From: Raillietiella orientalis
Taxonomy: Eukaryota
Reading direction: 5' to 3'
Assembly (NCBI GenBank): GCA_036172245.1
Contig: JAYWIR010000018.1
Coordinates: 248,001-312,000 of the forward strand
Length of the DNA stretch: 64,000 nucleotides
The position numbers were made by a program, and so were the translations under genes. Each line of letters begins with the position of its first letter. The first letter of the stretch is position 1. Positions 9,721 to 61,357 of this stretch are shown piece after piece. The notes beneath the pieces are model-generated. The model searched no databases and was not told where the DNA came from. It saw nothing but the letters and a program-made list of their open reading frames with translations.

Positions 9721-10053
9721 AAGCCCAAAGAGAGCCAACACTGGAACTACGAAGAATGCAATTCCTCAACCCCGGAAGACTTCCCCGAGGCGTCGGCAAC
9801 CAGAAGACGCGGGTAAAAGTGGCAAAGAAAGGCGCGTTTGATGCCGGAAGCAAGCAGCGCACGCGCTGCTCACCAAGCGCCACGGGGCGGCCGACCACCC
9901 AAGCCCACTCAGTGCTTTCCGCAAAACACCACCACTCCTTGTATTCTCCTGGAGTTCTCCGCGCGCGCTCAAAGCGCACCACCGGCTGCGCCCCTCCCGG
10001 GCGGCACCGGTCAGTCGCCGCGCGGCGCACCTCAGCGACGCCCACTCCTCCAT

Positions 10054-24596
<14,543 letters not shown>

Positions 24597-27021
24597 TTCG
24601 AGACGAGAGCTCAACAGTTAACAAATGCAAAAGTACCAAGTGTAAGTTCATTCTTTCTAAATAAAATGATTGCCCACAGAACCACGTTCATCAGAAAATC
24701 ATAATAAAACAAATCACAAATTAATCAATTGTTAGGGTGATAATACGGAAATATTTTTTTTACTAGGAGTTTCATGAAATAAAAACAAAACAATTTTTCT
24801 GAATTAGGGAATTTTAGTTAGACCTTATTTTAAAAAAGGTGTATTTCTTGATGACCTTTTTTTTTAAAAGGTATCAAATCAAAATAAACAAACACATCAA
24901 TCATCGGATGAGCAGAATGATTATACATACATTCGGAATGATGAATATCAGAATATCCTGCATAATTAAGGAAAACTGCTGATGCACATAGAAGTACTGA
25001 AATGCAATCATATTCCATTTTTCTAAAACAACCACTTGAAGTGTTGTTTTATTCAAGGATTTTATCTTCCTGATTACATTATTTCTAATACGAAATGCTC
25101 TAGATAAATAAATAATAATGAATCAGTGTCTCCAAATTCAGATAGAAAAAAATAACAGTACGTGGCGATGCCAAACATTGTAAATGCTTAAATTGTTTGA
25201 CAATATCTGCAGCATAAAATAGAAATATCTGTAAAATAACTGAAACCTTATATCTGCATGCCATGTATCGCTTCATGACAATCGTTTCTCTTTTTTTTTT
25301 TATTTCATGGTGTACATTATTTTCTTACATTTTGAGTGATGTGAGCTAACATGACTCGATAATTATTGAAATCAAGGAAGTGTATTAAGTAATTTTTTGG
25401 TAAAACTGTGCAAAGTGGTTAATCTTGAATCGAAGGTATTTTCTTGTCACACGTGTATATTGTGTGAGATGACACCAGTTAAGATTCGCCGGGTCTTCGT
25501 TTAAGATTGGACTTTCAGTGCTGAAAAAATGAATTAAAACATAGATTGAGATATAATTTCTTAAAGTTCTTGTTAACTCTTTTCAATTTTTGTATACTAA
25601 CGATGATTTCAACGTCCAAGGAGATGCAATTCTCCTTCCTATGACTTATATTATTTTTGCATGCAAAGACTATTGGAACGGCTCGATTTTCATGGCATGT
25701 GTGAGCAGCCGCGTCAAGGAAATGCATAGATAATCTTAAACTACAAAAGAAGCATTATTTTGTAGCACCGTGCTTTTATAACTCTTTCATTAACAATAAA
25801 AGTTCCTTTTCATTCCCGTTTTTCTAATTCTCATGATGTTCATGAAATTTCAGTACTCAACTTTTAGTTTGTATCATTCTAGGAAGAATAGGAGAATCGA
25901 CTTGAGGTGTGCTTTTATTTATGAATATCATAAATGTAGTGTGTATTGACGAATGTATAATACCTGTAATATAGTAACACTCCTATTTGAAATGAAATAA
26001 AACTGTTATTTTTTAAGATTATTAAAAAAATTAAGTAAAAAGTTAGCACTGATTTGATTTTCTAGCCTTGAATGGTTACACCTTAATTAATGAAAAACAC
26101 AAATCATAAAATTTGAAATAAAAGTTTTAAGAACCTTCGCAGAATTGGCTGAAAGTTACTCTACTCTAGTGATTCGACCGTTGGTATTTGTCTTTTGTTT
26201 TTTTTTCACAAAACACCAAAGATTGGCCTGGTTAGTTGCTGTAACAGAATATTGTAACAAAAACTACTAAAAACTTCTTAGCATTGTTTCTGTACGGCTT
26301 AGACCATTGTTTAATGCCGCAAGGAATCATAATCACAAAATTGGAGATATATTTGTATTACGGTATATATTTTAATAAATTAACATTTTTTCCACAAACA
26401 CATAAAGAAAGAGCTTCCTAAATTTTTAGAATCTTATGAGCTCAATTTTCTGAACTAAGTGATGTTTAGGTGATGTGATTGCATTGAGAGTTATTCTTTG
26501 AATTTTTTTAAAACATTTGTCTTCCTTTTAAATGAAATTATATAAATATTCGTTGCTACCGTGTCAGTGAATGATTTGTGGTACTATAGTTAGTGTTTCA
26601 AGGAAAACTGACTGGAGTTTAATTTTCGTATTTTGGATAACTATAAAAAACATAGTTCTAATATACATTTTTTAATTTATATCAAGATAATATATATCCG
26701 TTTTTTCTGTTTTTGGACATACTGTTATTTATGCCATTTTCAGAACAATTAAAAACTTCAGCATTTTAAGTATTTAATGTTGTTATATTCTAAACGATTC
26801 TGTGTATTCAAAATCCTTCATTATAGAAATGATTATTTTTAGAGTGATTAATTCTATTTATATTGGATTTAATGATTGGTTTTTCACTTCTCTCAAATAT
26901 ATTAAGGGCAAGTTTCATATCTTGCACAAAGCGTGGAAAAACCAAGTCATGACCTAGGCATTCTGATTTTAAAATGGTTCGAATTTAAGTAGGAAGGATA
27001 AGTGCGAAAGTAGTGTGTATC

Positions 27022-30000
27022 ATGTCTGGATCTGGAAATCTGCAAGGTGAATATTTGGTTTGTTTTATTTGCTTCATTGACATATCAAATGATGTAATTC
27101 AGTTAGTATTGTTAAAATGTAAGCAAGGTTTAATAGATGTTGGGAGTAATGCATTGTGTTGAGACAACGCAAAGATGCCATTAATAGAAATCTGAAACCT
27201 CAGAGAAAGCAAACATTGGGCTATCCAAGTTATAATACAGCCGCGTTTAAGTACTGCGGCGTGTACATTTGTTTTCAGCTTCCCATATTAGCCAAAAAAT
27301 TGAGCTTATGAGTTCTTCATGTCATAATGGTTTTTACTATACAACGTTATCCAAACGGGTCTATTAGAATATTGTTCTTCTAGTTAATATTCCTTCTGAT
27401 GCAAGGCTCTCCAGTGTGAAACTTTAATTGTTAATGATCCTTAGCTGTTACGGTCGCGATTTAACTCGTTAAATGTATATTTATAAATGTATGTGCAACT
27501 AGTTTAAAAATGTCGGTGTAACTTGCAGTTCCTGTATCAGTCAGGAGTAAGCTGGTTTCATGGTCCGATTTGTGCGTACATTGACGCCTATTATTTAAAT
27601 ACGAAATATGTATCAGAAGAAAGTATATGCTTGTCTAAGTGTTTATTTTATATGCGATTAGATGTTGCCTATTCAATAAATAAAGGAATTTTTTAAACAA
27701 GAAAGTAGAAAATTTGTTACTTGAGATATTGCGTTATTATGATTATGCTCATATCTACAACAAACATAATTATTGAATATCATAAAATTCCCGATGTCAT
27801 TTTATTCAGAATCTGTAACCTAGTGCATATGTAAAGAGTATTATGAGAAAAGTCAAAATCTTTATGCACAAAACTCGGAAAGTTCAAAGCAGCTAGCTGT
27901 CTGAATGCAAAAGGTGGCAATGTTTGTCTTAATTGTGTATCTGCATCTCTTGCTTTTGATGTTTGAAATCAGTGGGGATGTAGCACTGTTGTCATGTTAG
28001 TTTTAATTTAAAGCCAATTCTTTTACATTTTGCAATTCACCATTCAAAGGATGAAGATAATTGTATGAATTAAGATAATATAACATGATTTTGATGCTAC
28101 ATTGCAGTTATATGAAGAATGCGTATACTATGTATAAGTACTTGTACAAATGATCTATACATCCAGCACTTCATATAATGGAGTGCATATAAAATCGTCA
28201 TTGTAGTTAAGAATGTGAAACCTGACCTTACTATTTCAGCGTAATGTTTAAGTATAATATGTTTAAGTATTGGATTTACTTTATCTTCACTTTAGAATGT
28301 AGCAAAGATAAAAAAAGAGATATCAGGATCATTTTCATTTTAGAAATCGCATGATTCCTATTTTAAGGTTTTTTAAATTAATTGTACTAGCATGGAAGAC
28401 TGAGAATTCTGTATATCTAGGTTTAAATTTAACTTATATATATTTTAAAAGCATTTTTCATAATTTTGTTTCTTAATTAATTATTTTGATTAGATGTGCT
28501 GTATTATCAAGTAATGTAATAGGATTGTTTAAATAAGTGTGTAATCATTGGATTAATTAGGATTAATGTTGCAAAACTAGCCACCAAGTCTACTTTGCAA
28601 AGCCCAGCATAATCAGTGCACCTCATTGATGCACTGTTTCTAATTTGAGTATTGAAGAAACATTTTATAAAAATACTATTCGAGCCTATTCGATCTTTTA
28701 TAATTTTGGGGAAAAGCTCTGATTCAATCTTGTATATAGAAATGCAAAATACATGTCAATCATATTGTGAATATGATAACACATAATCAAGTTTTTTTTA
28801 GCTTAGTTGAATCAACATTGATTATGTTTGAATCCGCTTTCAATCATTTTATGGACCTTTGATAATTATTTGCATTGTAGGTGGTGGCTTCAATTTTGTA
28901 CCTTCCACAACCATTACAGCATTCACATTTGGAGCTACCTCCCCAACAACAAGTGGAGCCGGATTTGGTGCATTGGGGTCTTTCAAAGTTACTGCTACAT
29001 CTTCAGCTAGTATTACAAATACTTCTGCATCCACTACAGGCTTTGGTGGTTTCAAAAACTGGAATGCATCAAGTCCGTTACAGCAACCAACTGCTACATT
29101 TGGTTCCCCTCAACAAATAACTCCAGCATTTGGTGCTCCCCAACAAGAGACCTCTTCCTATAGTACCCCTCAAAAAGGAACTAATGCATTTGGCACTCCT
29201 CAGCAAGGAACCCCCTTTGGTACTCCCCAACAGGGAACAACATTTAACACGACCCCTCAAGGAACACCATTTGGTACTCTTCAACAAGGAAGTACAATTA
29301 ATACTACCCAGCAAACACCTAAACTTGGTACAACATTTCAAGGAACAATGTTTGGCACTCCCCAACAAGGAACTCCTACATTCAGTGGAGCTCAGCAGAC
29401 AACTGTTTCATTTGGCTCTACACCACAAGGAACACCAACATTTAGCAATTTACAGTCAGCTCAACCAGCTTCTACTCATTCTCAAGATGGAATGCCTATC
29501 TTTGGTGTATCAAATGCAGGCAGTGCTGTTGCAACTTCAGGATTCATGTTTTCTCCTTCAGTTTCAACTACTTCCTCTATTGCATCTAGTTTAAACAACA
29601 ACACTCCCTTCCAGACTACTAGTGGAGTGGCTAGTTTATCGCAAAATTTTGCCACACCAGTTACATCATTTGGAATCTCTTCAGGCTTGGTCACTTCTGC
29701 CCCTGTTCCAACTGGTACATTTTTTGGTGGATTTAGCCCTTCAGTATCCACAGTCACTAATGTGCCCATGGCCTCCACAAAAAGCGCATACCACTTTGGT
29801 GGGTCTGCTCCAACATTTTCTACAGCTACCAACCTGAATGCAGCTACAACCACTACTGTTATGTCATCCGCATCACCACTAACATCTGTTCCCACATCTG
29901 GATTCACTGCTCCTGTGATCTCTAACAGTGCTCCTCTTCAACCCATGTTTACCATCTCTACTTCCTACTCTGCTACCACCTCTGTTACTTCAGTAGCCCC

Positions 30001-31146
30001 CTTAATTAGTACGAGCACTCAAGCCCCTATAAGTGCCTGGGCAAGTGGTGTATCAATTACACCAGTCACAATTGCTTCATGTGTACCATCCATTGGTATT
30101 CCTGTTGTTGCCAGTTCTGGGATTGCATTGTCTGCCTTCACTACTGCAGCAACTACATCTGTCACAACTGTGACTTTGAGCAATTTGTCAAGTACAGGTG
30201 CTGGTGTAACTATCACACCTTTATCTGTTGGTATTCATTAAGTCATAGAAATTCTCATTATTAAAAATTGTTTTTATAGCAGCAAGCACCTCTGGTGGGG
30301 TAGGAATTTGCCATACAGTGCCAATCTCTTTCACTTCATCTACTAGTACAACTAGCAGTGCAACTTCGTAAGTGAAACCATGACATTATGAGAAATTAGC
30401 TTGTTCCAGTACCACTGCTTCATCTTATTTGGGTGGTTCTATTCATTTTCGTCAGTTGGAAGAGCTTATTAACAAATGGACTTTGGAACTAGAAGAGCAA
30501 GAAAAAGTATTTCTAAACCAAGCCACATTAATCAATGCATGGGATCGCATGCTAATTCAGAATGGTGAAAAAGTAAGTGACTTTCATATTCACGATTCCA
30601 TCATTATTGCAGATCACTATACTTAATGATGCAGTTGAGAGAGTCAAATTGGATCAGGAAAGAATGGATCATGAATTAGATTTCATTGTAGCACAGCAAA
30701 GAGAACTTGAAGACATCTTGGTGCCACTAGAGAAAAGTGTAGAAGCACTGCCATGCATATCACTGAACCAGCATGTGGATTTGGAGCGAGAACATATGTA
30801 AGAACACTTTAAATAGATGCTTACCAATGTCACTAGGTATCAACTAGCTGAAAACGTTGATGGCCAGTTGAAACACATGACAGCAGATCTTAAGGAAATC
30901 ATAGAGCAACTGAATTCTGCTAATAGTGAAACAGAAACAAATGACAACCAGGTGAGTTGATAACAGTTGTTAAAAGAGATGTGCTGGTAGACATCACAGA
31001 TTGCTCGCATTCTGAATGCTCACATGGATAGTTTACAATGGATTGAGCAGAATACAACATTATTGCAGCGTCAGTTGGACAGAGTCAGCAAGCTATATGA
31101 GCAACAGAAGCATGAACATGAGAAATCTTTGAGACTCATTGAATAG
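27022..31146 (+). CDS. NUP62: Nuclear pore glycoprotein p62 (FG-repeat N-terminus, Nsp1-like coiled coil), 7 exons, about 693 aa
   Basis: Exons 27022-27046 (MSGSGNLQG, phase-compatible but least certain), 28881-30230, 30280-30367, 30410-30572, 30613-30797, 30837-30951, 30991-31146. FG/T/S-rich region followed by QLEELINKWTLELEEQEKVFLNQATLINAWDRMLIQNGEKI...QIARILNAHMDSLQWIEQN. Confidence 0.93.
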
Positions 31147-34100
31147 TTGAGAAGCTTGGATCATTCAGCTGACTTTGTAAATTTTGAATGGAGTGTACAC
31201 TTGTGCATTACATCCATTGTTATCAAACGTTGTTGTTTCTTTAGAAATCTTTCTTTAGATATTATTATCTTTTGCTATGCTCATCATCAGGTCAAGACAA
31301 CTGTGCAAAATCAATGTTTCAGTTATTATTGGCGTGCACATATTGTTATTCCCATGCAAATACTTGCAATTATCCTTTAAGATGGAAGCACGGAGTGAAA
31401 TTTTGTTCCTGCATGAAGTCTTGGTCTTTTCTTTTTTCCATAATCCTATCATCAGACATCAGTGATTTCAAATAAGCAAGGACCCATGCAGTGGTAACAA
31501 AAAATTCTGATCACAATATACCCCCTTATAAGTAAAAACAAATGCTTGGACATCAGTTTTTTGAAATAAGTGTTTGCAATATTCCACATTTTGTAATATA
31601 CATGGAAGGTGAAGTTGAAAGATCAGTGTCTTCAAATTATTGCCTTTGATATGTGTATACATCCAGGGAGAACGATCGTGTGTTTCTAATGATTTTATTG
31701 ATTATATAGAACTCGACTTTCATTAAAATTATTATAAGTAGTCAATATTAGTTTTGTCATTGGGGGGGGGAGTATTTTTCTTGGAAATTTTCCTTTTTCG
31801 CCCATCATCAACGAAAAGCATTTAGGTACCGAAAAAGCAGTCCCGATGCATGTGACTAGTGTGCCAAACACATTGCATTGTAAAATAGATCGTTTGGGTG
31901 TAGGATGTGATAGTAAGCACTTTTTTTTAAAAAAAAAAAAGTCGCTGCTCTAGCGCATTCTGTGTATACACACATTTTAAGAAAGTCTGGAAGCTATTTG
32001 TTTTGTTGGCTCTCACAGGTTTCATCGCATTTGGCGAAGTCTAGCGGTAAATAAATCTACGTGAGCAGTTTCCTGGCTGTAAAATTCACTTCATTCTCGT
32101 AAGCAACAAGGTTGCGAAAACTTGAATCAAAGGAATGCATTCAAACGTTAGAATCTCAAAAGACCTAGGTTGGCTGCACAGCTGCTGTAGTCCTGTGCTA
32201 GCATTTTAATATACGTACAGGCTAAGAACGAGCAGAGACGAATTAGGTCCGGGTTTAGTAAACAGCCGAACACCATCATAGTTGAGATTCCCATGTATAC
32301 AATCGCAAGGTGATCAACAACCCATTTCTCGTACATTCCCACCTTGCCTGGGTAAACAAATGCTTGAATTAGCTGAACAGCATGCACGCAATTTGTAAAA
32401 AGCCTTGCATGAGGCATTGAACTCGAGCATTCGAATTGTTTATTCTACGTAAACTTTATGCTAACAGAAAATGAGTAAGCACCTGCATCTTTTACTTGGG
32501 GGTGGGGGGACCCAAGCAGTGATATCACCCTCCAAGGATCATTCTCAGAATACAGAGAGCATTTGATTGTAGTAAGCAGGAGATAAAAGGAGAAAACGAC
32601 AGTGAATCAGATTTTGAAGATCGAGGAGTGCAAATAACCATTCTATTGAGATGCTATTGCTGAATTTTACCCCTATTCGAATGTAGCGCATATTGGGGCA
32701 TAGTGACAGATACAAGGCACCATGGTAATTACAAGAACATCTTTCCTCGAGAAATACTTATAGGGTGATATGAAATTAGATTGGAAAATTATGTGGCATC
32801 CTAATCTGCCCAATTTCAATCACTTCATTCTTCGAAAAGAATGCTTGAATTCCTCGGATAACAGGAAAATAGTACAAACAGCTGCAGATCATCGTTAGCG
32901 TTTGCTGGTGGACTTACAATTATCATCCACGTGGGATTGATATACTGAAAAATCATTTTGAAGGTCCAGGAACGAATAATGCCAATAAAAACAAAAATCA
33001 CTTTCTTGCTGACATTCACTTTCATTCATTTGGCTTAACCTCATCCCCTCCTTCCTTAATCCATCTTTTCGGGATTACAATTATCAATAAATCTGTGAAG
33101 CAATTTATAGTTTCACTTGCTATATGGTTTCTCATTCCTTACGCTGATTTATTGCTCGCTAGGCACTACCCAATTGCCAAAGTACCGAAATTGAGTAAAC
33201 CTTCGTTCCATAAACCATAAGCAGTGTCTTATAGGATTTCGAACTTTGTTCAGGTCATGATGTATCATCGTTGTGAAAGAGTGCTTGCATTTTTTATAGC
33301 AAAATGCCAATATAAAATCGTGTTGAGATTCATCTGTTTCATTTCGGAACATCAGCCTGACGCACTCCTTTGAAAAAGGGTTAATTATAATATGAATTCA
33401 TGAACCAAACGAAAAGATATCCAGAAAAGAGAAACCCTTATATTTAAATCTAGATCCAAATTATTAGCAAGTGTCTTCTTTGTTAGTTAAACGTTTATTA
33501 TCCTTTGCAAAAAATATGAACCAGTTGAACGAAAGACACGAAAGTTTACAAATAAAGTAGCATAGATTCACGTTCTAATTGTGATACCATATTTTCCTAA
33601 ATCATCGAACTATAGGGTATTTCCCTGAAAGAGAGATCACATAAATGTTCAGAAAGGAATCCGTAGAATTGTGAAGCAACCTGACCAATCTTGTAGCATC
33701 TTCAAATTTTGCTTGTTGTCCGAGCGTGTTTAATGAGATACGAACTTCCAGATGTTTGTTTCTATAGGAAAAGGAGTTCGTAAGCAAAAAGTGATATATT
33801 TCATTTGTTTCATATTGTGATTCGAAATTTTATTTCTTTTTGCTTTTCTATTTTCTCTATGTTTCAATGTCATTCTTGTGATATACATCTTTTAGTCTCA
33901 GATAGCCTTAGATATACATTCGCAGCAACTTTCCCGTTCATTCTGTCTGCACCCTAAAGCTTTTCAAAACTACTATTTGCTCGTATTCTTTGCAATCATT
34001 TCGTCGTCCGCCTGTCTTCTCCTATCCTAGCTCCGAAATTCAACCTCGGACTTGCATCTCTCTGTGCCCTCGAATTTGTAAACCTACTTTTTCTGAAGAC

Positions 34101-35068
34101 TACAATTACCTAGTGAAAAATGAATATTTATGGATTGTAATTATAAATATCTTTTAACTGATCATTTTGCAAACAGGGTTTTATGCGATAGTTATTGGCT
34201 AAGTAACACATATGTCCTTCATATATATCTGGAATTACTTCAAAACGAACGTATGGCATTAGATTGTTCAACTGTTCATTATTTATTTTAATCCATTTGA
34301 TGACAAGGACTGTATACGCACAGTATTTCAATAAACTCTATAAAGATACAAAAAGACAAAGAAAATATGTGCTCTTAGGTGAAAAAAATGCATATGTATT
34401 TGTATTTCCATATATCTTCCCCAGTTATCATCGATATTTCCATAATAAAGAGCAATTTTGTGCATTTGAAAAATTTTCTCATTACACTATTTATTCACTA
34501 ACTGTATGATCAAGTATTCCAATTATTAATTATATAATGATTTAAAACATTGTGTTCCAGCTTACTTGATTCAGTAGAAATAATGAAATTTTGGCATTTT
34601 TGTTGAGTACTGATAAATCTCTAGGCAGTGTTCAATCGAAATGAGTATTTATTTTTTTGGTATTTGCGAGTGCTATGTCGCAGGTCTCCATCATACAACA
34701 TTCACATCTTATTTAATCTTATTTAATATTATAGCCCTTGTCGAAAATATATGGTCTTTTTTGACAATACTTTGGCGCTCCATTAGCGGAAGCGGCTGGT
34801 TGAAATCGGGACTAGAGTATATAATGTGCTTTCACCTAGATTGTCTTGAGCGAATGAAAGCATATCTAGGAATTTTAAATTGATTGTAATTATAGGCAAC
34901 AGCATTTTTGGGGTTGTTTTTAGTTTCAAGGTCTATCTGCTCATAGTTACTTTGGACATATGCAGCAAGAAAAGTAAATGTGGCTCTTATATCTGAAAGA
35001 TTAAGAGCAAAAGTTTTGTTGAAGTTTGTTGAGAAAAGAGAACAGAGCATCATTTAATCGCTCTAGTC

Positions 35069-38000
35069 ATGCAGATGAAATCAACAGAAGCAACCTTGCT
35101 CACTTCCCATCAAATAATTGAAAGTGGAACTAATCTGGATACCAATTCGTTAGAAAATTGTGATTTTCATGCTGTGGGCGACTCGTCTATTGTGAAGTTA
35201 GAAAGCAAACTTGGGTGTGAAGTACCATACATCAAACATCGAAGTTTTGAATATAAGCGTGTGCGATGCAAAAGTGAATCAGAAACACTCAATTTCAGTA
35301 AAGTGGTAAAACGATTCAGAGAGTTCTCTCCATTACAAAAGGAAGATTGTTTTTCCAGTAATTCTCAATCCGGTTCCCTCAGTTCAAAAAATATTGAATC
35401 TCAAAGGCAAGTATCACTAGATTCGGAATATTTATCAAAGAAAGCATCATATAAGTGTACAAAAGATCTCACCCACAGTGAAACCATGGATAGTGTGAAT
35501 GAGGTAATTTTTTCAACAATAACTTATTTCTCAAAGCATTCGCATTCAACCTTTAAATGTTCTTATGCCCTTTCACTAATTTCTTGTTTCACTTCTTAGG
35601 ACTATAAAGAATCAAAGAATGTTGATACTGTTGAGTCTTGTGTTTGTGAAATTTATGATCAAAAATTGAAACTAAATGGAAGTGAACACAACACATCTGA
35701 AATGGGTTCTGATTTTGAATTGGAGAGGTTGGTGAATATTTTCTAACTATTTCTGTTTCTTATCGAGTGAATACGGTTTATTGATTTTTATTTATTTTAT
35801 TTGGGTGTTATTTGGATTGAATCAAAGTCGCATTGATTGCGTTTTTTTTTTTTTATATCTAATTTTTGCATCTCTGAACATGTATTGTTTTCCCTTGGTA
35901 TACATAGTTCCCTGGAGGAGGATGGAGAAAGTTCGAGAACAGATTCATCAGATGTAATTAGCACTGATGAAGGTAATGTATATTCGCAGCAAGTGTGTGT
36001 GGATTTGTGTTATGTGGATTATGGAATGTATTTGATATATTTTAATTGTTTGGTACAAAAGGGTTCTGTTCAACCCCTGTAATTGAAGATGAATACAATG
36101 CTACACCATTAGTGGAGAATTCAGAGACTGAGGGTTTTCATTCTTCCAAACAGATGACTGTTGAACCACAGCTGAGAATCCCAAGTAAATTCATGTATAC
36201 AAGAAATATGTATCAAATGTGATTTCTTTATTATAGAAGTGCAGGTGCCTCTTTGGCTAAGTCATTTTTCTTATGTGCCACCTCATCTCCGTTTTCAGTA
36301 TTTGGGTGAAGGTATGATTTTTGTTAACAATTATAAGCTATGCTTTCTGTGTAGAAGCCAACTTTGTTCCTTTTCCCAGTGAGATTAGGCATATGCTACG
36401 ATGGAGACTGAGCACTATCACACCAGTGTTAGTGCGGGAAAGGCTAACTGCAGTTGGTTTTCGTTTAAGCAAAAGTAAATGGAATTTGCTATTGGTAATT
36501 CTTATAGTGATGATTGATTAGAAACAGAGCAGTGGCTTGGAACTTGGGGAAAGCATATGCAGGCAGCTGTTTTTCGTTCTCTTACATCAGTCCAGAAAAT
36601 GAACCATATTCCAGGATCATTTCAAATTGGTCGCAAAGATCGTTTATGGAAGAATTATCAAAAGCTGCAATCCAGATTTGGTTCCAAGAAGTAAGCAGCC
36701 AGAAATTTCTTTTGAATTGCAAAAAATTTTATAGTTTTAATTATCTTCCTGTGACATATGTGCTTCCTCGTGATATGAGGCTTTTGAAAAAGCAATGGAA
36801 CAAATTAGATAATCAGCCAAAGTGGATTGTTAAACCAGTGAGTTATGAGGGTTGGATTTTTACTTGATGTTGAACAGCCAGCATCTGCACGTGGACAAGG
36901 TATTCAAGTCATAAGTAAATGGAGTCAGTTACCCCAGCAAAAAGGCATGTTGGTTCAGAGGTACATTGCTCGTCCTCTGCTCATCAATGGTACCAAGTTT
37001 GATTTGCGCCTGTATGTCTTGGTGACTTCTGTGCATCCATTACGAGTGTATCTGTATTCTGATGGTTTAGTTCGTTTTGCCTCTGCTGAGTACTCACTTG
37101 CTCCAGCTACTTTATCTGATACTTATCGTCATCTTACTAATTACAGTATTAATAAGACCAGTGCTACTTTTAAAGAGAACAACAATGCATCTGCATGTAA
37201 TGGACATAAGTGGAGTCTTCGTACATTATGGAAATATTTGGCTTTGCAAGGTGTGAATACACAATTACTGTATCGGCAGATGCAAGATATTGTGATCAAA
37301 ACTCTGGTATCTGGAGAGACTGCTTTGGTATCCCTTACCCAGACTAATGTTTCTTCACGTTACTGTTGCTATGAGCTGTTCGGTTTTGATATCTTATTGG
37401 ATTCACATTTAAAGCCATGGCTTTTGGAAGTTAATATATCTCCATCTTTACGTGCAACTTCACAGTTGGATTCAGACGTAAAAGGACCATTAGTGCAAGA
37501 TGTTCTTAATTTGGCCATGTTCCATCTTCCTGGAAGCCGTGTAGGACACCAACAAGAGGTGAAGCTGTTGTGCATGTTGTTATTTCTTTTTTTTCCTCCC
37601 CCCTCTTGACCACCTTTCAGGTCCAGCTGATCCACAATCTAGGATTACCAGAAAATATTGGTACCCTGTTTCATGATAAGCGACTTTATGCCACTTCATT
37701 GAGTCCATCTGCTTCTGCCAAGCATGAGTTCTTCACAAGCTCATCCATCAGTCGAACTAGTTATTTGAGTGCTATTTTGAATGATCTGACATCAGATGAT
37801 GTTCGTGTGCTGATCCGTCATGAAGATGAATTATCACGTTGTGGCAGGTAAAATTAAAAGTGAATAAATTTATTTCCATTATGTCTCACTTTGTATGTAG
37901 ATTCCAGTGCATTTTCCCCACAAAAACGACCTATCGGTATCATCGATTTTTAGAATCAGCACGCTATTATAATTTTCTTTTGGATGCCTGGGAGCAGTTT

Positions 38001-38285
38001 TATGGGGATAAAAGAGCTGAAGGTATGTCTTTATCTGTGAAATCTATTTAAGTTTTTTCCATAGGTATAAGTTATTTGGAACAACTTTGTCAAAAGCAGT
38101 ATCATTTGTTGGATGATTCTCAAACATCTGTGTCTTTTAACAAATCTGCAAATACTAGTTTGCTCCCATCTCAAAGTATGCCCCCAAATTCCAATGTTTC
38201 ATCTCCCATCAGTGCTGATGAATCAGAGAGGTATGTCACCACTCCCATATACCACACATTAGCTGGTGTGCCAGTTGCCACATAG
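35069..38285 (+). CDS. TTLL4: Tubulin monoglutamylase TTLL4-like, 12 exons, about 822 aa
   Basis: Exons 35069-35503, 35600-35727, 35908-35972, 36062-36184, 36237-36311, 36355-36474, 36522-36690, 36735-36837, 36878-37558, 37621-37847, 37901-38022 and 38065-38285 join in frame. Motifs WLGTWGKHM, NHIPGSFQIGRKDRLW, WIVKPPASARGQGI, KFDLRLYV, YELFGFDILLD, WLLEVNISPS. Confidence 0.9.
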
Positions 38286-39737
38286 TTTCTAGTTTCTTAC
38301 CTATCACATTTTGAGCAAATTGCTTGCAAACCACAAACTCAAAGAAAGTTTAAAATTAAATCTTATTTTTCAAGCAGTGTTGTTTTCCCATGGAACTATA
38401 TCTTCAAAAAACTTCAAAGAACATTTCTCAATGAATATGCAGCTATTCAACATTGTGTGTGCATGTGCACATGTATGTATATTCATATATGTATCTATAT
38501 ATTGCAGTGCTAACAATGCTCAGAGTGACTGCAAATGACTTAGAATCGGTTATGATTGATACTTGTATTAGCAAATTTCTTTGAATAGAAAATTAAAATG
38601 TTTTAAGGATGTTGATGACTAAAGTATGTTTTTTGATGTGGAAGGTAAGGCTATTTTTTGCTTAAAGAGCGTTCCAAAGAAAGTTGCATTCCTAAAAGTC
38701 GATTTGTTTCTTAGTTAAAGCAGCCAGAGATTCCTGAATAGTTTGTAGCTTTTTATCCACACTGAAATAAGCAATGTTCTTCAATTTCTGTATTTGAACT
38801 AGTGGCATTCAGAGTTTAAGAAAAGTACCATATTGCATAAATTCTTTATTCACGTTAATCCCTTTCATCCTAAATATATTTGTTGAAGTGGACTTATGCA
38901 AAAATTTAGTTTTCCATACAATGAACATCTGTCTGTTCAGCTTCATAACAGGAAGACAAAGGGCTTTAAAAAGAAATGACAGCATGCACATTAGTAAAAA
39001 AAAAAAAAAAAAGAAAAAAAAAAAAAAAAGTGAATTGTGTGTTAATATTTATGTTCCAATCTTCTTGAAAATTCAAGAAATAATGTCAAATGATTTGTGA
39101 AACTAGTGAAAAACGTAGAAATTTGAGGAGTAATGTCATTTGGAGATGTGTTGGCACTCCAAATACATGTACATTGTACAAGTGGGTTTAAAGGGTTTCT
39201 TATTTGCAATTGAATTTTGAACCTGCATTTTAGAAGGAATGTACTACTTATGAAGTGATTTGAGTACTTATCCTTAAAGCATTAAAAAAAGTCACAGGTT
39301 ATAAGCCATTATATTTTAATGTTAGCATCTATATTATATTCCAATGTAAGTGTGACATTTGGTTTTTGGTTTTTTGGACAAAAATTATCTCGTCATATTA
39401 AAATAAACAAGTTGGAATTAAGGTTTCAAGCATGCAAGTATTTTTGAGAACACTAAAAATTCAAGCTGAATTGGCACAGGAATTCAACTGTTTTATTGTT
39501 TGAGGAGGCTTGTATAACAGTTCAATTAGGAGTACATCTCTTAGATTTTACAGCATAATTCACTGGTGATATTTCACATTCACTGGTGTATTGTAAACTC
39601 ATATGCTTTATTGCTATACTAACTTTTGTGGCATAATGAATGACTTTCATGATACTCATCACCAGGCATTATAAAAAAAAATATATAAAAATGTAAAGGA
39701 CAATGAAAACATCTTCATGATGCGAATGTCTTTCAAA

Positions 39738-40944
39738 CTATACTGATGCCATAGACATTTTGACCATGGTTTTCACCAATCCTTGAAGATTTGTGTTTTG
39801 CTCATGGGATGTCAAATTCAATTGTGCCTTATTATTTTTGACTGTTTTGGTGTGCCAGACTAGAATACGTGTGCATTGGTTTGCTTTAGGTTCCAGATCG
39901 TGCAGCTGCAGATCCAAACTACGCAAGAAATAATCTTCTTCATAGCCAGCATGATAAGGCATTGTTGCATTTGGTTTACTCTGAAGTAATTCTAATCGAA
40001 CTGCAAATCCTGCCATGTCTATTTGAAACTTTCGGCCAGCTTTCCAGCTGTCAAAAAAACCTTTCACTGTGTCCTGTAAAACACAGTTGTTGTTGGTACA
40101 TATAAATACAGTCATGCCTTTAATGAGCTTACATTTATCACAACTGGTGAACTAACACCTAGTTTGCCTATTAATCCAACTGGGAACACTGAAACGACTT
40201 TTGTTGAACGTATCTCTTGAAAAAGCTCTACAGTAAACATGTTATCATCATCAGCGAAGTAAACGATTCCAACATTAAAATGTCTCTGTACCCATTCCAA
40301 TCCTGCCCGTCTTCCGGATACCCCACGTGGAAGAAGGTGATGCTTTTTGTATCCTTCTGGAGTAGGGCTAACTAAATGACTATAGGAAAGGTTTGAATAT
40401 GCTAATGTTTCTTCCACTATAGAGCCACACTGGTCATTATCTTCACTTACAATCCAGTGAAGATTTGGCACAAATTTCAGGACATAACTAAGCTTAATCA
40501 ATTCAGGTACTTGCTCAGGTCTACTGTATGTAGGCGTAATGACAAAAATCGGAGGCCATGGTTCAGAGCTGAAATTCTATCAGAAGAAGAAAAGAAATGC
40601 AGAACAATTTATTTGTATTCAAAATCATCATTTCCATTTAATATGTCATAGCAGTGAAAGTTGTAACTCTTACATTAGTTCTCATATTTGTTAATTTTTT
40701 CGTGATTGCGGATATCAGACAGACATCTTACCTTTGTATATGTATTGCATTCAGAACGAAATTCTCGAAATGAGATTTTTTGGTTAATTTTCGTAGCTGC
40801 ATTCTTTTGTCTTGTAGTATTTAAGTATTGCTGTCTTTCCACACACACTAATACAACAACTATTAATGTAAATACAGTTAAAACTATAAAATAACGAAAA
40901 TATATATTATTTATGATTCTTTGCATTGAATTGTGCATAGCCAT
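39738..40944 (-). CDS. Galactosylgalactosylxylosylprotein 3-beta-glucuronosyltransferase (GT43, GlcAT-P/S-like), paralog 1, 330 aa
   Basis: Exons 40944-40732 (N-terminal TM), 40576-40133, 40073-39738. Motifs IFVITPTYSRPEQ, LHWIVSED, YFADDDN, FQIDMAGFAV, LEPKANQCTRILVWHTKT. Confidence 0.92.
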
Positions 40945-42375
40945 TACCACTGCACCTTTCTAATCCTCTAAGGGAATTTTATATTACTCTCATTCACCAC
41001 TGAATTCAGTCTGTATTTAAAGTTGGATGCTGTGCACAATTATATATTTAATCGTGATGTGCATTATTATTCACGAGTTATCCAGTGTGCAATTATACGG
41101 TACCGTACTTTCTGGACGTTGTAGAGATAACTTGAAACTTGAAAAACTAATTGTTTTGGTTCCAGTAGAAGCCATTGGGATCATGGTGATAAAGCTGATG
41201 TTGTAACATATGACGGGAAAAAAAAAATACTGTATGATGTGGTAAAAATGCAAATTTCCCAGGTGCGGTACACAATAATAAGTCGAATACATTATGCATA
41301 CGAATCGTCATAATTCATGTGCAATTCGTATGCAACCTGTTTTTATGCTTTGGATAATTCCCTGCAACGAAGAATTTTACCATCCACAAATATTTTGTTT
41401 GGAAAAATCGATCTTGCTTTCAAAATCCGATGACACGCTAAGCAGCCCTCAGGCAACGGCGTTTCGAAAGTGCAGCCCGGGCTGGTGGTTGCCTCTGTGT
41501 GCTTTGCATGGCCGTTAACACGGAGGGTGCAGTGAAAGAAAAGGTGGACTTTTATCAGTCTTTCATTATGATCTCTGCCTGGATGCATCCATGTTTCCGA
41601 AACGTACCGACCCGTCTGAGGAAAAAAGAAGCGTCCCAACTGTAGCTGCAAGAATCTCGAGGGAAAAAGACGTCAGCGAGTCAGAAAGCTGCTCAGTCAA
41701 AAGAGCACTGCCGAAAGTACAGATTTTCATTTTTCTTTTCTTTTTTTTCACATTCACCTTAGCATTGCATTCTCCACTGACTTATGGCGATCATCCTGGC
41801 ATGTAACAAGAGCCAACGAAATCTTCCAGTAAAGCAGACTCCGTGGACTCGCCGCTGAGGACCAAGCACCAGATTCCAGCTTGAAGGAAGAATGTTCACG
41901 CCGTTGATGGTTCTAATGTGTAAATTATGGAAGGGGAGGAGGGAAAAGAAAATTAGCGTTAAAAAATATCCGTTGATTCGACAGGTAATCGGTATTTTGA
42001 CATGCACGTCATGTCCGTCAATTTCAGCTCTGAAGGGTCAAGCATCACTCTGAGAGCATTTTCCCTTTTTTCAGTGAATTTTCTACCTATCGGGTGCCGT
42101 ACACTATCGCTGTAGCAAGCAATTTACGGTGAACCTTCGGTAGTTCCACATCCATGTACACGGGGAAATCCTGATGCTCTTTCAAACAGGACAACGGAAG
42201 CCATTGAACACAGGAAATGGTGCACTCGATTTGGAAAATTTTATTGGACTGATTTATTTGATGGTATGCAAAATACTGAAATCTCGACAACAGCTTCCCT
42301 CCATCTCTTTCTGGCTCTGCCACATGACTTCTCTCGCTGCTGAAATGAACTTGGTAGCAAAATTACGATAATTTT

Positions 42376-44171
42376 TCAAGAGGTGGCCATTGACATAGCT
42401 TTCATATTCATCAGCAATCTGTGCATGTTCGTGGCATTACTGTATCTTACAGTCTTCACATCTAGAGCGTCTACGTGAATGTTTTTGGTGTGCCACACTA
42501 ATATCCGAGTGCAGTTGTCGGCTTTCGGTTCCAGGTCATTTAGCTCAATTCCGAGACTTCTAAGAAAGCCATCTTCTTCATAACCAGGTATGTAAGGCAT
42601 ACGGGCATTTGGGCATGATCTCAAGAATTGCAGGTCAACTGCAAACCCAGCCATGTCTAAGGCAAACTTGCGATTGCCTAACCAGCTGTCGAAGAAGCCT
42701 ACCACGGTTCCCTGCAGAACACAAAATGTGGTCAGCAGTTGAAAATCAATGGATTAGAAATCATCAAGAGTGTGACATAGTAGGACTCTTATAGAATCAA
42801 GGTCATGCTTTTGCAAGATTTTATGACTATACACAACAAAAGTATCGGAAAAGGCTTTCTCACGTTTTGGACTATTGGAGAACTAATGGCAAATCGGCCA
42901 ACTAATCCAACAGGAAATACCGACACTACTTTCGTAGAATTTATCTCTTGGAAAAGTTCTGTGGTGTACACGTTGTCATCGTCTGCAAAGTAGATAACCC
43001 CTCTGTCGAAATGGTTGAGAGCCCATCTCATTCCAGCTTCTCTTCCAGAAACTCCTCGTGGTTGCACCTGCATCTTTCGAAAGTGAGCAGGCATCGACGC
43101 GACCAGATGAGAGTACGATAAATGCGAGGATTTCAACATTTCCGTGAGCTGCGGGTTGCAGGATGGGCTGTCTTCGATCAAGATCCAGTGTATGGATGGA
43201 ATGGTTTGGAAAAGGTAACGAAGCGTCACCAGCCCAGCCATCTGTGTTGGTCTCGCGTAAGTTGGTGTTATGACGACGAGGGGCCGCTCCAGATCCTGAA
43301 ATGGTGCCTCATATAAACGAACAGCCCCTACCCTTGCGCTTATTAGAACGCATAAGTTTCTCTGCATCCACCGGCCTTTCTTTCCGTAAAAGGAAACGGT
43401 GGTGTGAAAGGATTTTCTGTAAAAAGATCCATTGCAAAATTTTGCGGTATGGGAAGAAAGTTGCCCACTTCAGGATTCTCGACAGCCACTCGGAAGGCAA
43501 AGGATCCGCTTCGGAGAAGCATCCAGCAAACGCCAGCTCAAACGCGGGAGCTCCCGGAAGCTTCGTGGGCATCGAATCGGGCGGTTGCGCAGCGATATAG
43601 CAGCATGCGGAAGTCGACCCCAGTCCAAGGTCAACGGGAGCTGAATGTGTCGAGAGATTGAGGGCACAGAAAAAGGCCTGTTTTCTCAACTCGATTGCAG
43701 CTCTTTATCTTACTTTGCGGACACCTTATCTTACTCAGCAACCCTTCGAACTTGCCGATTCTTTGCATTGCTCATGAGCGCCCAACGCGGCAGTGATGAC
43801 CGAAAACCAGAGCGCCTATCTCCGATGAAAGCGCGCATATTTGCCAACCCGCATCCACGGCAACGCCATCCTGCAGAGCGACTCATCCGTCCCAGGTCCC
43901 GAGAGGCGACCGGCACCTTACTGGCCGCAAAGAAGTGGCCGCATTGGTCGCCTTCCGTCGACGTCTGCCAGGGCGGCTCTGACTCCGCTCTCTCCTGCCC
44001 GGTTCCTGCTGCGTCTAGTTGCTTCCAAGTGGAGCTCTCTGTCTTGCTAGCACTGATCGTCATCAGCCATATCCACAACGTCAACAACAAATACACCAAC
44101 AACCAGAACCAGTAGATGGTGGTGCTGCTCTTCAGACGGCACGCGAAACCGTTCACTCGTTGAGAGTACAT
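42376..44171 (-). CDS. GT43 glucuronosyltransferase (GlcAT-P/S-like), paralog 2, 340 aa
   Basis: Exons 44171-43917 (TM IYWFWLLVYLLLTLWIWLM), 43295-42864, 42711-42376. Motifs VITPTYARPTQ, YFADDDN, FALDMAGFAV, LEPKADNCTRILVWHTK. Same intron phases and same last-exon length as paralog 1. Confidence 0.9.
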
Positions 44172-44592
44172 GGGTGCTGACTTTCGGGTGGGGAATAGAG
44201 GTAGGCAGCTGCCGCATGAGCAAGATAAACACTAGCACATTGATAACAAAATCAACAAAACCTCTCCATTTCACAAGGGGATTTGGGGATCCTTTACGTA
44301 TCCGCTGCCTTCGGAGGGCCAACGATCTTTTGCAATTGGCAAACTCAGCAATCGAACTCCAGAGAGAAGCAGTGCCACCGAGTCCCGGTTCCGCCTCCGG
44401 CGGCTCCCGGAAGTGTTCCGAAAACGCGAGAGTAGGCACGGCAGAGTGAGGATCTCGGGCACCAGCAAGGAATCCGCAACAGATGTCCGTGATTCACTAT
44501 CAGAGCGCAAGCGGATGCCTACGAAGCCGCCCTCGTGTCAACAACTGCTGACGCACGAGGCCTCGCGAGGGGGGCTCTGGAAGGTTGGCATT

Positions 44593-46700
44593 AGAGGAGT
44601 AGCCCATCGCCTGGACGGCACGCACGGGGGCAGACGGTCGCGGGATGCAGGAAGATTCTTGCGATCCCGCGAGCGGAGCCTGAAGGGGAAGGGAGAGACG
44701 AAGGGCCGAGTGCGGGAGGTTGGATTCTCTGCGGGCAGCAAGAGTTTCTGGAAATCGGCGGGCAGAGGGCGGCCGCAAGGAGGCGCGCGCGGTGCCAGCA
44801 CTAGCGTTCCATCCGGCGAGCGTCGTTTGCTTGCAGTTGATGGGAGCCTCCGGGTTGAGGCGCAGCAGCCAGGTGGCGATCCTCAACGCCAACTACATGA
44901 GCCAGCGGCTGAAGGAGGCCTACGACATGCTGTTTATGGACGGGAACGGGCGCGTGGGCCACGAGTTCGTCATGGACGTCAAGCGGTTCAGGAAAAGCGC
45001 CGGCATCGAACCCATCGACATTGCGAAACGGCTTCAGGATTTCGGTAGGTTGCCCGCGGTTGGCGCCGCCGCTGCGCTCGGGCTGCATCGCGGGCTTCCC
45101 GCGGGTGCCTGGTGCGGTGTCGCCTCGGTTTTCGGTTCGGGGGGTGGGGAGGGGTCGAGCTATTCTTCGTGGCCGGAGACCGTCAGGCTGAGGCAACCGG
45201 GACCTGAAAGGAAGGGGGGGGGGTCGTAGGGTCACCGAAAAGGCAGTCGCAGGCGTGTCACGAGCGGGCTGCGGGGGCGTGCGCGCCGAACGAGGAGCGT
45301 GGGATGGAACGGGTGGGCTCGTTACCACGGTTACGGTTGCGGTGACTTGCACTGCATGCGAGCGGAGTGACCGACGCGTGATCTCTCCCCTGGCGCCCTG
45401 GGTGGCGACTCTGAGCACGTGGACTCTGTTGGGAAGTCCGGCGTGCTCCTCGCGCGTGCGCGCACTGCCCACGCGCTCAGGGGATGTTTGGCTGGCGGAG
45501 AGGGGCGCGCGCAGGATCGCAAGAGGAGGAGGAGGGTGTGGAGTGCATCCAGAGGGTTCGCCGGCTTCTCCGCGAGGGAGAGTGCGTGGGGAGCGCGCAA
45601 CTGGCCGGATGTCCCGGCATCCGGTAGTGGGGAGCGACTGTGGCGTGGAGGACGGAGGTGGGAACGGATGAGAGGCGTCGGTGAGTCTTCCCGGAGGCGC
45701 CTTCCCTGTCGTGCGAGGGGATTCGGCACTTGCCGCTTCGAGGTCAGCGACCGGAGGCGACTCCTTCCTTCCTTGCGTCCTGCCTTCGTTTTTTCCCGTT
45801 GTTTCGCTGCTTCACCTGCGTGCCGGACGGGTGCATGCATGCTGGTTCCTGGGGCGTGGAGAGAGAGAGTGAATGGGGGTGGGTGGGTGCGGAGTAGAAA
45901 GTCAGCGGTGTTGCTGCGAGGTCGGCCCGCGCATCGACAGGCGAAGGAGACCGGGGAGGGAGGGGTTTTTTTGTTGCAACGCTGGGGCGGTGCGGGGACA
46001 CCTGTTCACCGTGCTTGTCTCCAGGGTTCCACTCCCCTACGATGTCTTGGCCGGCGGTGGGCGCCCTGATGGTGGAACCCACCGAATCGGAGAGTCTGGA
46101 AGAGATCGACCGCTTCTGCAACGCGCTGCTCGGTAGGGTATGGCGCGGCGCGCGGCGGTCTGAGCTTGCGGCCTGTGTGCAGCGATCCGTGAGGAGATCC
46201 GCGCCATCGAGGAAGGACGGATGGACGCGGCCAACAACCCGCTGAAGAGGGCGCCGCACTGCCAGCACACGGCGCTGCAGGACGCCTGGGACCGGCCTTA
46301 CAGCAGGCTCCGCGCCGTGTACCCGGCGGTAGGAGCTCGCGCGGTCGCTCGTCGGAAGGCTGTCGTGCGCATTCCAGGACTTCGTGGTTCCCGGCAGCAA
46401 GGTGTGGCCGACGGTCGGACGGGCCGACGACGTGCAGGGAGACAAACATCTGGTGTGTTCGTGCCCGCAGTAAATGGAGGAGTGGGCGTCGCTGAGGTGC
46501 GCCGCGCGGCGACTGACCGGTGCCGCCCGGGAGGGGCGCAGCCGGTGGTGCGCTTTGAGCGCGCGCGGAGAACTCCAGGAGAATACAAGGAGTGGTGGTG
46601 TTTTGCGGAAAGCACTGAGTGGGCTTGGGTGGTCGGCCGCCCCGTGGCGCTTGGTGAGCAGCGCGTGCGCTGCTTGCTTCCGGCATCAAACGCGCCTTTC
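44593..46700. repeat. Right arm of 2108-bp inverted repeat
   Basis: Reverse complement of 9827-11934. Exact match starts at AGAGGAGTAGCCC (44593) and ends at CGCGCCTTTC (46700). Confidence 0.97.
44837..46473 (+). pseudogene. GLDC: Orphan, undamaged copy of GLDC exons 17-20 (no 5' exons upstream in this orientation)
   Basis: Exons 44837-45044, 46025-46132, 46183-46328 and 46378-46473 have intact splice sites, frame and stop (LMGASGLRRSSQVAILNANY...HLVCSCPQ*). Lacks the PLP-lysine exon. Confidence 0.9.
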
Positions 46701-47019
46701 CCCGCTGCTTCTACGCGCATCTTCCGGTTGCCGACGCCGTTCCCTTTTTTCGGGTTCGGATGTGGGAGAACGCCTGAAGGCTCTTCATATTGGTCTGGGG
46801 AAGAGACCCTTAGCAAGGAGGGCGGCGGCTGGCGGTTTCTGATAGTCGGCTAGGCGAAGATCGTTGTCAGACGACAGCTCAGGGCGCAGACCTTTCAGCA
46901 CTCAAACCGGAGCCTATGTCCGAGGTTAACAATCGCTGCACTCCCTGGCTATCGGGTGATCGCTTCGGGGCCTATAGAGGTACCCAACGGCTCTTCTGTA
47001 CTTCGGTGCTCCGCAGGAA

Positions 47020-60800: not shown

Positions 60801-61357
60801 TTGAATCCTCCGGCTCCAACGCCGTCGCTTCTTCACTCCCTGCTTCCACGACTTTTGTCTTAAGATCCGACATCCAAACCAGTGGTGTTTCGTTCGAAGG
60901 ATTCAAAATGGACGCCTTGCGGGGGAGGGAAAGCCGACGAGGTTTCCGTGCGAAATCAGAAGCACACGGAAGAGCACACATCTGCTGGATGCTTGCGTTT
61001 GCACGTGGCAAACACATCACTTGTTTAACTGATAAAAACGAAAATTTCAGGTTTCTTGCAACTCCATCAGCCGCTCGCGCCGCTTCAAGGTATTGTGTTT
61101 GTTAGCCTCGCTAGCCTCGCTAGCCCCGAGGAGAGGGAAAGAAAAAAAAAAAAAAATAAGCTGCTGCTGCTGGTTGGAGAGTTTCCGTCACGTGATGCTT
61201 GGCAACTCGCCAGAAATGTTCACCTTCGTTGCCATACCCACGTCAGTAGTGTAGCATATAGTACCGCTCGCTGTGTGTGTATACGTTGCGAAACGTGCGA
61301 TTGTACCAACTCGCTTTTTATTTCACGTTGTGGATTTGAACGTGTTGAACATGGAAT

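What the first reader, a model, noticed from the sequence alone, without database searches (positions are those of the whole stretch)
46701..46738. Diverged shoulders around an identical core: signature of ongoing gene conversion
Seen: homology continues past the exact match but is abruptly degraded. The outer shoulder 46701-46738 vs 9826-9789 is CCCGCTGCTTCTACGCGCATCTTCCGGTTGCCGACGCC vs TTTGCCACTTTTACCCGCGTCTTCTGGTTGCCGACGCC (9 mismatches in 38, gap-free, 8 of them transitions). The inner shoulder is AAGGTTGGCATT (44581-44592) vs AAGGTCGGCGTC. Further inward, short shared words persist (TCAGAGCGCAA, GAAGCCGC, CCGGAAGTG) in 44400-44540 and GLDC intron 16, though not perfectly collinear. Inference: the duplication is old and was once larger, while the core, including a 980-nt intron that should drift freely, is being homogenised. 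A fresh duplication or simple assembly copy would end cleanly.
Basis: partly seen in the sequence, partly recalled or inferred. Interest (0 to 1): 0.72.

Follow-up and report, generated by a model that had tools for sequence, protein, structure and literature searches.

The report
Old inverted GLDC-tail duplicate, recently homogenised
The last four exons of a glycine-cleavage gene (GLDC) are present twice, in opposite orientation 33 kb apart, letter-identical over 2.1 kb but diverged at both edges, which likely marks an old duplicate kept alike by copy-to-copy repair, a known pattern that recurs at other duplicates in this genome.

Summary
Observation confirmed to the base. The inverted arms (9789-11946, 44581-46738) share an exact 2108-nt core, including a 980-nt intron. 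The outer shoulder matches 29/38 with 8 of 9 transitions; 0 of 1500 simulated clean junctions reach that. The inner shoulder (9/12) and four shared words are weaker support. No homology was found beyond 46738, so 'once larger' holds only weakly and only inward. The shoulder is therefore older than the core's identity, and assembly error is unlikely to create such a step. 'Ongoing' is not shown: no reads were listed and no relatives are held, and one recent long overwrite fits too. The pattern is common here: in 1.01 Mb sampled, 9 of 13 near-identical local pairs have edge-clustered differences. The scan noted the same pattern before at other loci of this genome. It matches the published edge-degeneration model of converting duplicates (Drosophila). 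Both arms sit on broad GC peaks, but a GC bias of conversion could not be shown. A crossover in the core would flip 32.6 kb and leave GLDC intact. Verdict: real, new member of a known kind, modest interest.

The parts
46701..46738 (+). Outer shoulder of arm B, 29/38 to 9826-9789; the 19 nt next to the core match 11/19, the distal 19 nt match 18/19
44593..46700 (+). Identical core, arm B: 244 nt of intron, last four GLDC exons, introns of 980, 50 and 49 nt, stop codon, about 230 nt downstream; 67% GC; orphan copy without upstream GLDC exons
44581..44592 (+). Inner shoulder of arm B, 9/12, three transitions
44407..44530 (+). Four words of 8-11 nt shared with the GLDC intron at 12116-12011; possible decayed homology
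9789..9826 (-). Outer shoulder of arm A
9827..11934 (-). Identical core, arm A: the 3' end of the intact GLDC gene (exons 11690-11483, 10502-10395, 10344-10199, 10149-10053)
11935..11946 (-). Inner shoulder of arm A, inside the 427-nt GLDC intron 12117-11691
10053..19899 (-). GLDC (glycine dehydrogenase P protein): 18 modelled exons, open for 893 codons to the stop; further 5' exons probably near 22.3 and 24.4 kb
11947..44580 (.). 32,634-nt spacer that a crossover between the arms would invert; holds the 5' part of GLDC, a TTL-family gene and two family-43 glycosyltransferase genes
   Evidence: inversion itself is inferred

Best explanation
The two arms are an inverted partial duplication of the GLDC 3' end that is likely old, and whose 2108-nt middle is likely kept identical by repeated arm-to-arm gene conversion while the edges escape it and drift. 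Inferred mechanism: a break in one arm is repaired from the other arm 33 kb away on the same chromosome; repair tracts cover the middle often and the edges rarely, so differences pile up at the edges and the recognisable repeat shrinks. The second arm would be a passenger without upstream exons. A rare crossover would invert the 32.6-kb spacer without changing the GLDC coding sequence. Shown: identity, shoulders, gene anatomy, recurrence of the pattern in this genome. Inferred: age, conversion, its repetition, any inversion.
For: Step from below 0.14% divergence in the core to 24% in the shoulder, in register and without gaps. 11 of 12 differences are transitions. Clean junctions never gave the outer shoulder (0 of 1500). 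The identity covers a 980-nt intron and all synonymous sites of a copy that lacks the gene's front, so selection on protein does not explain it. In 1,014,000 nt sampled, 13 local pairs of at least 250 nt and 90% identity were found; ignoring 12 columns at each end, 160 differences fall in the outer 30% and 94 in the inner 70%, and 9 of 13 pairs are individually edge-clustered at p<0.05, among them 4 of the 6 other pairs with no third copy in the sample. Some pairs keep isolated inner differences, so the assembly does not erase them wholesale. GC falls away from the arms on all four flanks (rho -0.84 to -0.91) and GLDC GC3 rises 0.55, 0.77, 0.86 towards the core, as long-term recombination at these sites would give. 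The same edge pattern is described for converting duplicates in Drosophila (PMC2588116, passages).
Against: No outgroup or population data, so direction, rate and repetition are untested. Divergence does not rise smoothly outward: it is highest next to the core (8 of 19) and lowest at the far end (1 of 19; Fisher p 0.019, post hoc). No relic beyond 46738 and none of upstream exons at arm B. Local alignment and the 90% cut-off favour pairs with a clean middle and ragged ends, and 6 of the 13 pairs belong to multi-copy families, at least one with reverse-transcriptase-like sequence. The GC peak is not general: only 2 of 13 pairs stand clearly above random windows, and the third-copy test of GC bias was mixed (47:49, 157:161, 133:113, 367:325, 65:44, 306:226, with double counting). 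GC is also high over flanks that are not homologous, which arm-to-arm conversion alone cannot explain.
Confidence: 0.58

Rival explanations
1. One recent event: short old homology at both ends seeded a single long overwrite or template switch that copied 2.1 kb from A into B (repeat expansion or gap filling), possibly together with inversion of the spacer. The shoulders are old, the identical core is young, and nothing is being maintained.
For: The boundary is abrupt, with three mismatches directly at the core edge. Conversion tracts averaging at least 2068 bp were inferred in a human palindrome (PMC3723533, passages). Inversions with inverted duplications up to about 1.9 kb are common in Drosophila (PMC1885836, passages). 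GC profiles pair best as outer A with inner B (mean difference 4.6 points) and GLDC side with outer B (8.0), against 15.8 and 7.3 in the present arrangement, as if the spacer had been flipped; 4% of high-GC windows are as asymmetric as arm A. This is one locus with three possible pairings.
Against: It still needs earlier shared ancestry, since no other site in 1.01 Mb matches the shoulder above 24/38. One tract would have to cover 98% of the recognisable homology. Other pairs in the sample show stepped divergence over hundreds of bases, which suggests repeated events.
Confidence: 0.29
2. Assembly artefact: consensus or polishing removed real differences between the arms, or an amplification chimera created arm B.
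For: No reads could be examined. Zero differences in 2108 nt. Inverted chimeras are the commonest type after whole-genome amplification (PMC9984789, passages); whether this genome was amplified is unknown.
Against: By inference, collapsing can hide only a few percent of difference, not a step to 24%. Other pairs retain isolated inner differences, and both orientations occur. Reported chimeras mostly join sites under 10 kb apart over about 5-8 nt of overlap; here two switches 33 kb away would be needed.
Confidence: 0.08
3. Fresh duplication with clean ends; the shoulders are chance or a shared promoter-like motif.
For: The distal 19-mer occurs once more in the genome and a 15-mer of it 4 times against 0 for the control; it contains CTTCCGG, which is 2.6-fold enriched (351 vs 134; ETS-like label recalled).
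Against: Without the distal 19 nt, the proximal 19 nt still match 11/19 with one transversion (permutation p 0.007 and 0.0005), in exact register with the core. The third site shares nothing beyond the 19-mer.
Confidence: 0.05

Closest known systems
Duplicated blocks with edge degeneration under interlocus gene conversion in Drosophila melanogaster (Osada and Innan 2008, PMC2588116; passages seen; authors' names recalled)
   Same: High identity in the middle, raised paralog divergence at the edges, local same-chromosome pairs of about 1-2 kb, shrinkage of the identifiable block.
   Different: There, conversion was proven with orthologs of both copies in sister species; here no relative is held. 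Here the copy is a partial gene and the shoulder is only 38 nt and abrupt.
Saccharomyces chromosome XIV flip/flop region (PMC9731477; passages)
   Same: Two near-identical kilobase inverted repeats (4.2 kb, 24 kb apart; here 2.2 kb, 33 kb apart) homogenised across non-coding DNA, with the spacer invertible as a by-product of conversion.
   Different: [quoted passage not shown]
Human Y palindrome P6 (PMC3723533; passages)
   Same: Arm-to-arm identity; tract length of about 2 kb equals this core; conversions far outnumber inversions.
   Different: Arms are far larger; GC bias was measured there and is inconclusive here.
Inverted duplications at inversion breakpoints by staggered breaks (PMC1885836; passages)
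   Same: Inverted copy of part of a single-copy gene at both ends of a segment, similar size limit.
   Different: That model gives no reason for older homology at the ends, and its duplicates were on average 88% identical, not identical in the middle.

Membership tests
Converting duplicates with edge degeneration (PMC2588116) | Divergence raised at the edges, high identity in the middle | tested here: met
   0 of 2108 in the core, 12 of 50 at the edges
Converting duplicates with edge degeneration (PMC2588116) | Local pair on one chromosome | tested here: met
   Only two DNA and two protein matches in the genome, both on contig C18 (counts are lower bounds)
Converting duplicates with edge degeneration (PMC2588116) | Pattern not explained by selection on coding DNA | tested here: inconclusive
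   The 980-nt intron is identical and arm B lacks upstream exons, but no orthologous divergence profile could be made
Converting duplicates with edge degeneration (PMC2588116) | Both copies predate speciation yet cluster by species | not testable with these tools
   No relatives held; best hits of a window protein are about 60% identical
Flip/flop inverted-repeat region (PMC9731477) | Near-identical kilobase inverted repeats around tens of kb | tested here: met
Flip/flop inverted-repeat region (PMC9731477) | Both orientations present in the population | not testable with these tools
   No reads; only an indirect hint from flank GC
Flip/flop inverted-repeat region (PMC9731477) | Arms carry complete genes | tested here: not met
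   Arms carry only the last four GLDC exons; no Pfam match for three long alternative frames of the core; no Rfam match in the window
Large mammalian sex-chromosome palindromes | Arms over 10 kb (definition from the start of the abstract of 10.1101/800185) | tested here: not met
   2158 nt
Large mammalian sex-chromosome palindromes | GC-biased conversion | tested here: inconclusive
   GC3 gradient and GC peak at this locus; third-copy counts mixed; shoulder differences cannot be polarised
Staggered-break inversion duplications (PMC1885836) | Ends joined without prior homology, one age along the copy | tested here: not met
   Two ages in one alignment
Staggered-break inversion duplications (PMC1885836) | Spacer inverted relative to an outgroup | not testable with these tools
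   No outgroup genome

The most novel reading that the evidence does not exclude
This arthropod-like genome converts local duplicates at unusual density: 9 pairs of at least 97% identity in 1.01 Mb, 3 of them in the 550 kb away from this contig, which would mean on the order of a thousand genome-wide. Stable break hotspots at such arms would both homogenise them and build the broad GC peaks, and this pair would be a coding-neutral hinge on which 32.6 kb flips in the population.
Probability: 0.2. Interest if true: 0.6.

Novelty: new member of a known kind. Interest (0 to 1): 0.3.

Why it matters
As one locus it is a clean example of a published pattern. It matters mainly as a marker: if the density of homogenised local pairs holds genome-wide, this animal would be a good system to measure tract length, edge decay, GC bias and recurrent inversion outside mammals, flies and yeast, and a warning that duplicates dated by identity look far too young.

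Tried and rejected
Sequencing runs: none was listed, so no reads were laid; this is no evidence either way. Relatives: none held. Hidden homology or exon relics between flanks: none. RNA family in the window: 0 Rfam matches. Genes in the outer flanks: no match above Pfam's cut-off among the 42 frames tested, chosen from the longer of 83 frames listed; short exons could be missed. Shoulder as a dispersed repeat: rejected, one extra 19-mer only. A shared end motif (GTYGGC lies 3 nt inside both ends, and the inner shoulder's 12-mer recurs in another pair's shoulder): 4 of 13 pairs, p 0.07; the 12-mer has 36 genomic hits against 11 for the control; not accepted. GC bias from third copies: mixed. 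CpG decay as the source of the transitions: 54 of 148 pooled in a CpG-capable context against a 0.28 background, p 0.015 with a crude null; not relied on. Three-copy mosaic test: one partner is interrupted, so inconclusive. Two inverted pairs below the cut-offs (88 nt at 94%; 284 nt at 86%) were left out of the 13. Literature searches for dense genome-wide converted repeats in arthropods listed none that describes this, but the organism was not identified, so this is weak.

Full report
Observation. The window is G000:C18:248001-312000 of a 210-Mb, 491-contig assembly. A conserved window protein has best hits of about 60% identity, mostly arthropods, so I call the organism arthropod-like. One long inverted repeat is present, 9789-11946 and 44581-46738, 32,634 nt apart. 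The core 44593-46700 is identical over 2108 nt; the outer shoulder has 9 differences in 38 (8 transitions) and the inner 3 in 12 (all transitions).

Chance. Outer shoulder: 0 of 20000 shuffles, 0 of 1500 simulated clean junctions, and no other site above 24/38 in 1.01 Mb. Inner shoulder: 8 of 20000 and 5 of 1500. The four inner words are matched by 31 of 12643 and 13 of 12644 real GC-matched controls, but a gapped alignment is marginal (19 of 500) and one word is out of order. Beyond 46738 nothing aligns, and no pair of flanks shares convincing DNA or protein similarity. The shoulder is uneven: 11/19 next to the core, 18/19 at the far end. The far 19-mer occurs once more in the genome without further similarity, so it may be a constrained motif, but the near half is significant without it.

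Anatomy. Homologs identify the gene as GLDC. Eighteen exons from 19899 to 10053 on the minus strand give one open frame of 893 codons. The core begins in the 427-nt intron and holds the last four exons, the 980-nt intron and about 230 nt past the stop, including a variant polyadenylation hexamer (function inferred). Arm B has no upstream GLDC exons; a frame that likely starts a family-43 glycosyltransferase gene begins about 400 nt inside it on the other strand (link inferred). Only two copies were found in the genome. A crossover in the core would therefore invert the spacer and leave the GLDC coding sequence unchanged (inference).

Two ages. The core is below 0.14% diverged at 95% confidence; the shoulder is 24% diverged (11-40%). 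Shared ancestry older than the core's identity is thus well supported. How often the core was overwritten is not known.

Context. I sampled 1,014,000 nt: 464 kb around the window and 550 kb from five other contigs. There are 13 local pairs of at least 250 nt and 90% identity, 9 on this contig, 6 inverted and 7 direct; 7 have no third copy in the sample. With 12 columns ignored at each end, 160 differences lie in the outer 30% and 94 in the inner 70%; 9 of 13 pairs are individually edge-clustered, including 4 of the 6 other two-copy pairs; the other 4 pairs are not, three having a single event. Selection of pairs by local alignment inflates this pattern, and 6 pairs belong to multi-copy families. 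Earlier notes of this scan report the same pattern at other loci of this genome; these are unchecked and not independent evidence.

Base composition. Both arms are GC peaks, 13-14 points above their 3-kb flanks (1.9% of random windows reach this; only 2 of 13 pairs are this clear). GC declines on all four flanks; this holds for 3 of 12 high-GC windows that overlap an arm, all three at this pair, and 3 of 105 others. GC3 in GLDC is 0.55 far from the core, 0.77 near it and 0.86 in it. This fits long-term recombination at these sites but not arm-to-arm conversion alone, since the flanks are not homologous. Third-copy counts gave no clear GC bias. Flank profiles pair better in the flipped arrangement, a weak hint of a past inversion.

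Mechanism and rivals. Best: old partial duplication, repeated arm-to-arm conversion, edges escaping (0.58). Rivals: one recent long overwrite seeded by old end homology, perhaps with inversion (0.29); assembly artefact (0.08); fresh copy with chance or motif shoulders (0.05). The first two agree that the homology is old and differ only on 'ongoing'.

Known systems. Raised divergence at the edges of converting duplicates is described in Drosophila (PMC2588116; passages). The geometry resembles the yeast flip/flop region (PMC9731477; passages); tract length and rarity of inversion are known from a human palindrome (PMC3723533; passages); inverted breakpoint duplications from PMC1885836 (passages); amplification chimeras from PMC9984789 (passages). 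Template switching between diverged repeats (PMC4215184) was seen only as a listing with the start of its abstract. The repeat-expansion model was taken from an earlier scan note; I did not read its source (one search lists plastid papers that mention it). No supplements were read; Figure S2 of PMC2588116 bears on how sharp the published edges are.

Verdict. Real and correctly described; interpretation partly supported. New member of a known kind; interest 0.3. The possible genome-wide density is the more interesting lead.

Noticed in passing
G000:C18 86044-92887, 193327-196381, 382597-384760, 468460-471508; C1 2049917-2053790: Five more inverted pairs of 450-1370 nt at 97-99.8% identity, GC 58-71%, spacers 1.1-5.7 kb, differences mostly at the ends.
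   Followed up: partly
G000:C18 140605-177812; C33 1043431-1071694; C5 1535119-1546782: Direct pairs of 1.2-1.8 kb, 9-34 kb apart, with near-identical cores and one strongly diverged shoulder.
   Followed up: partly
window 10053-10060 and 46467-46490: GLDC stops one residue after the conserved C-x-C-P motif, while four aligned homologs continue 4-13 residues further; the codons after the stop read M-E-E-W, like a remnant of the tail. Identical in both arms.
   Followed up: no
window 17180-17237: GLDC intron with a GC-AG boundary, needed to keep the frame open.
   Followed up: no
window 39738-40576 and 42376-44172: Two tandem family-43 glycosyltransferase genes, about 71% alike in DNA, GC3 0.27 and 0.45-0.55, higher in the copy nearer arm B.
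   Followed up: partly
window 1-64000: GC swings between 27% and 67% per kb; CpG is scarce at 28-31, 36-40 and 52-55 kb, as gene-body methylation would give (interpretation from recall).
   Followed up: no
G000:C18 153-174 kb and 49 kb: Cluster of related copies with reverse-transcriptase-like sequence; the copy at 164 kb is 98-99% like the 172-kb copy in one half and 91-100% like the 49-kb copy in the other.
   Followed up: partly
G000:C33:1026241-1026259: Exact 19-mer of arm B's distal shoulder with no similarity around it.
   Followed up: yes
window 28832-30241 and 61349-62719: Long frame rich in FG and Thr/Ser, nucleoporin-like by recall and without Pfam match; single-exon FBXL14-like gene.
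   Followed up: no
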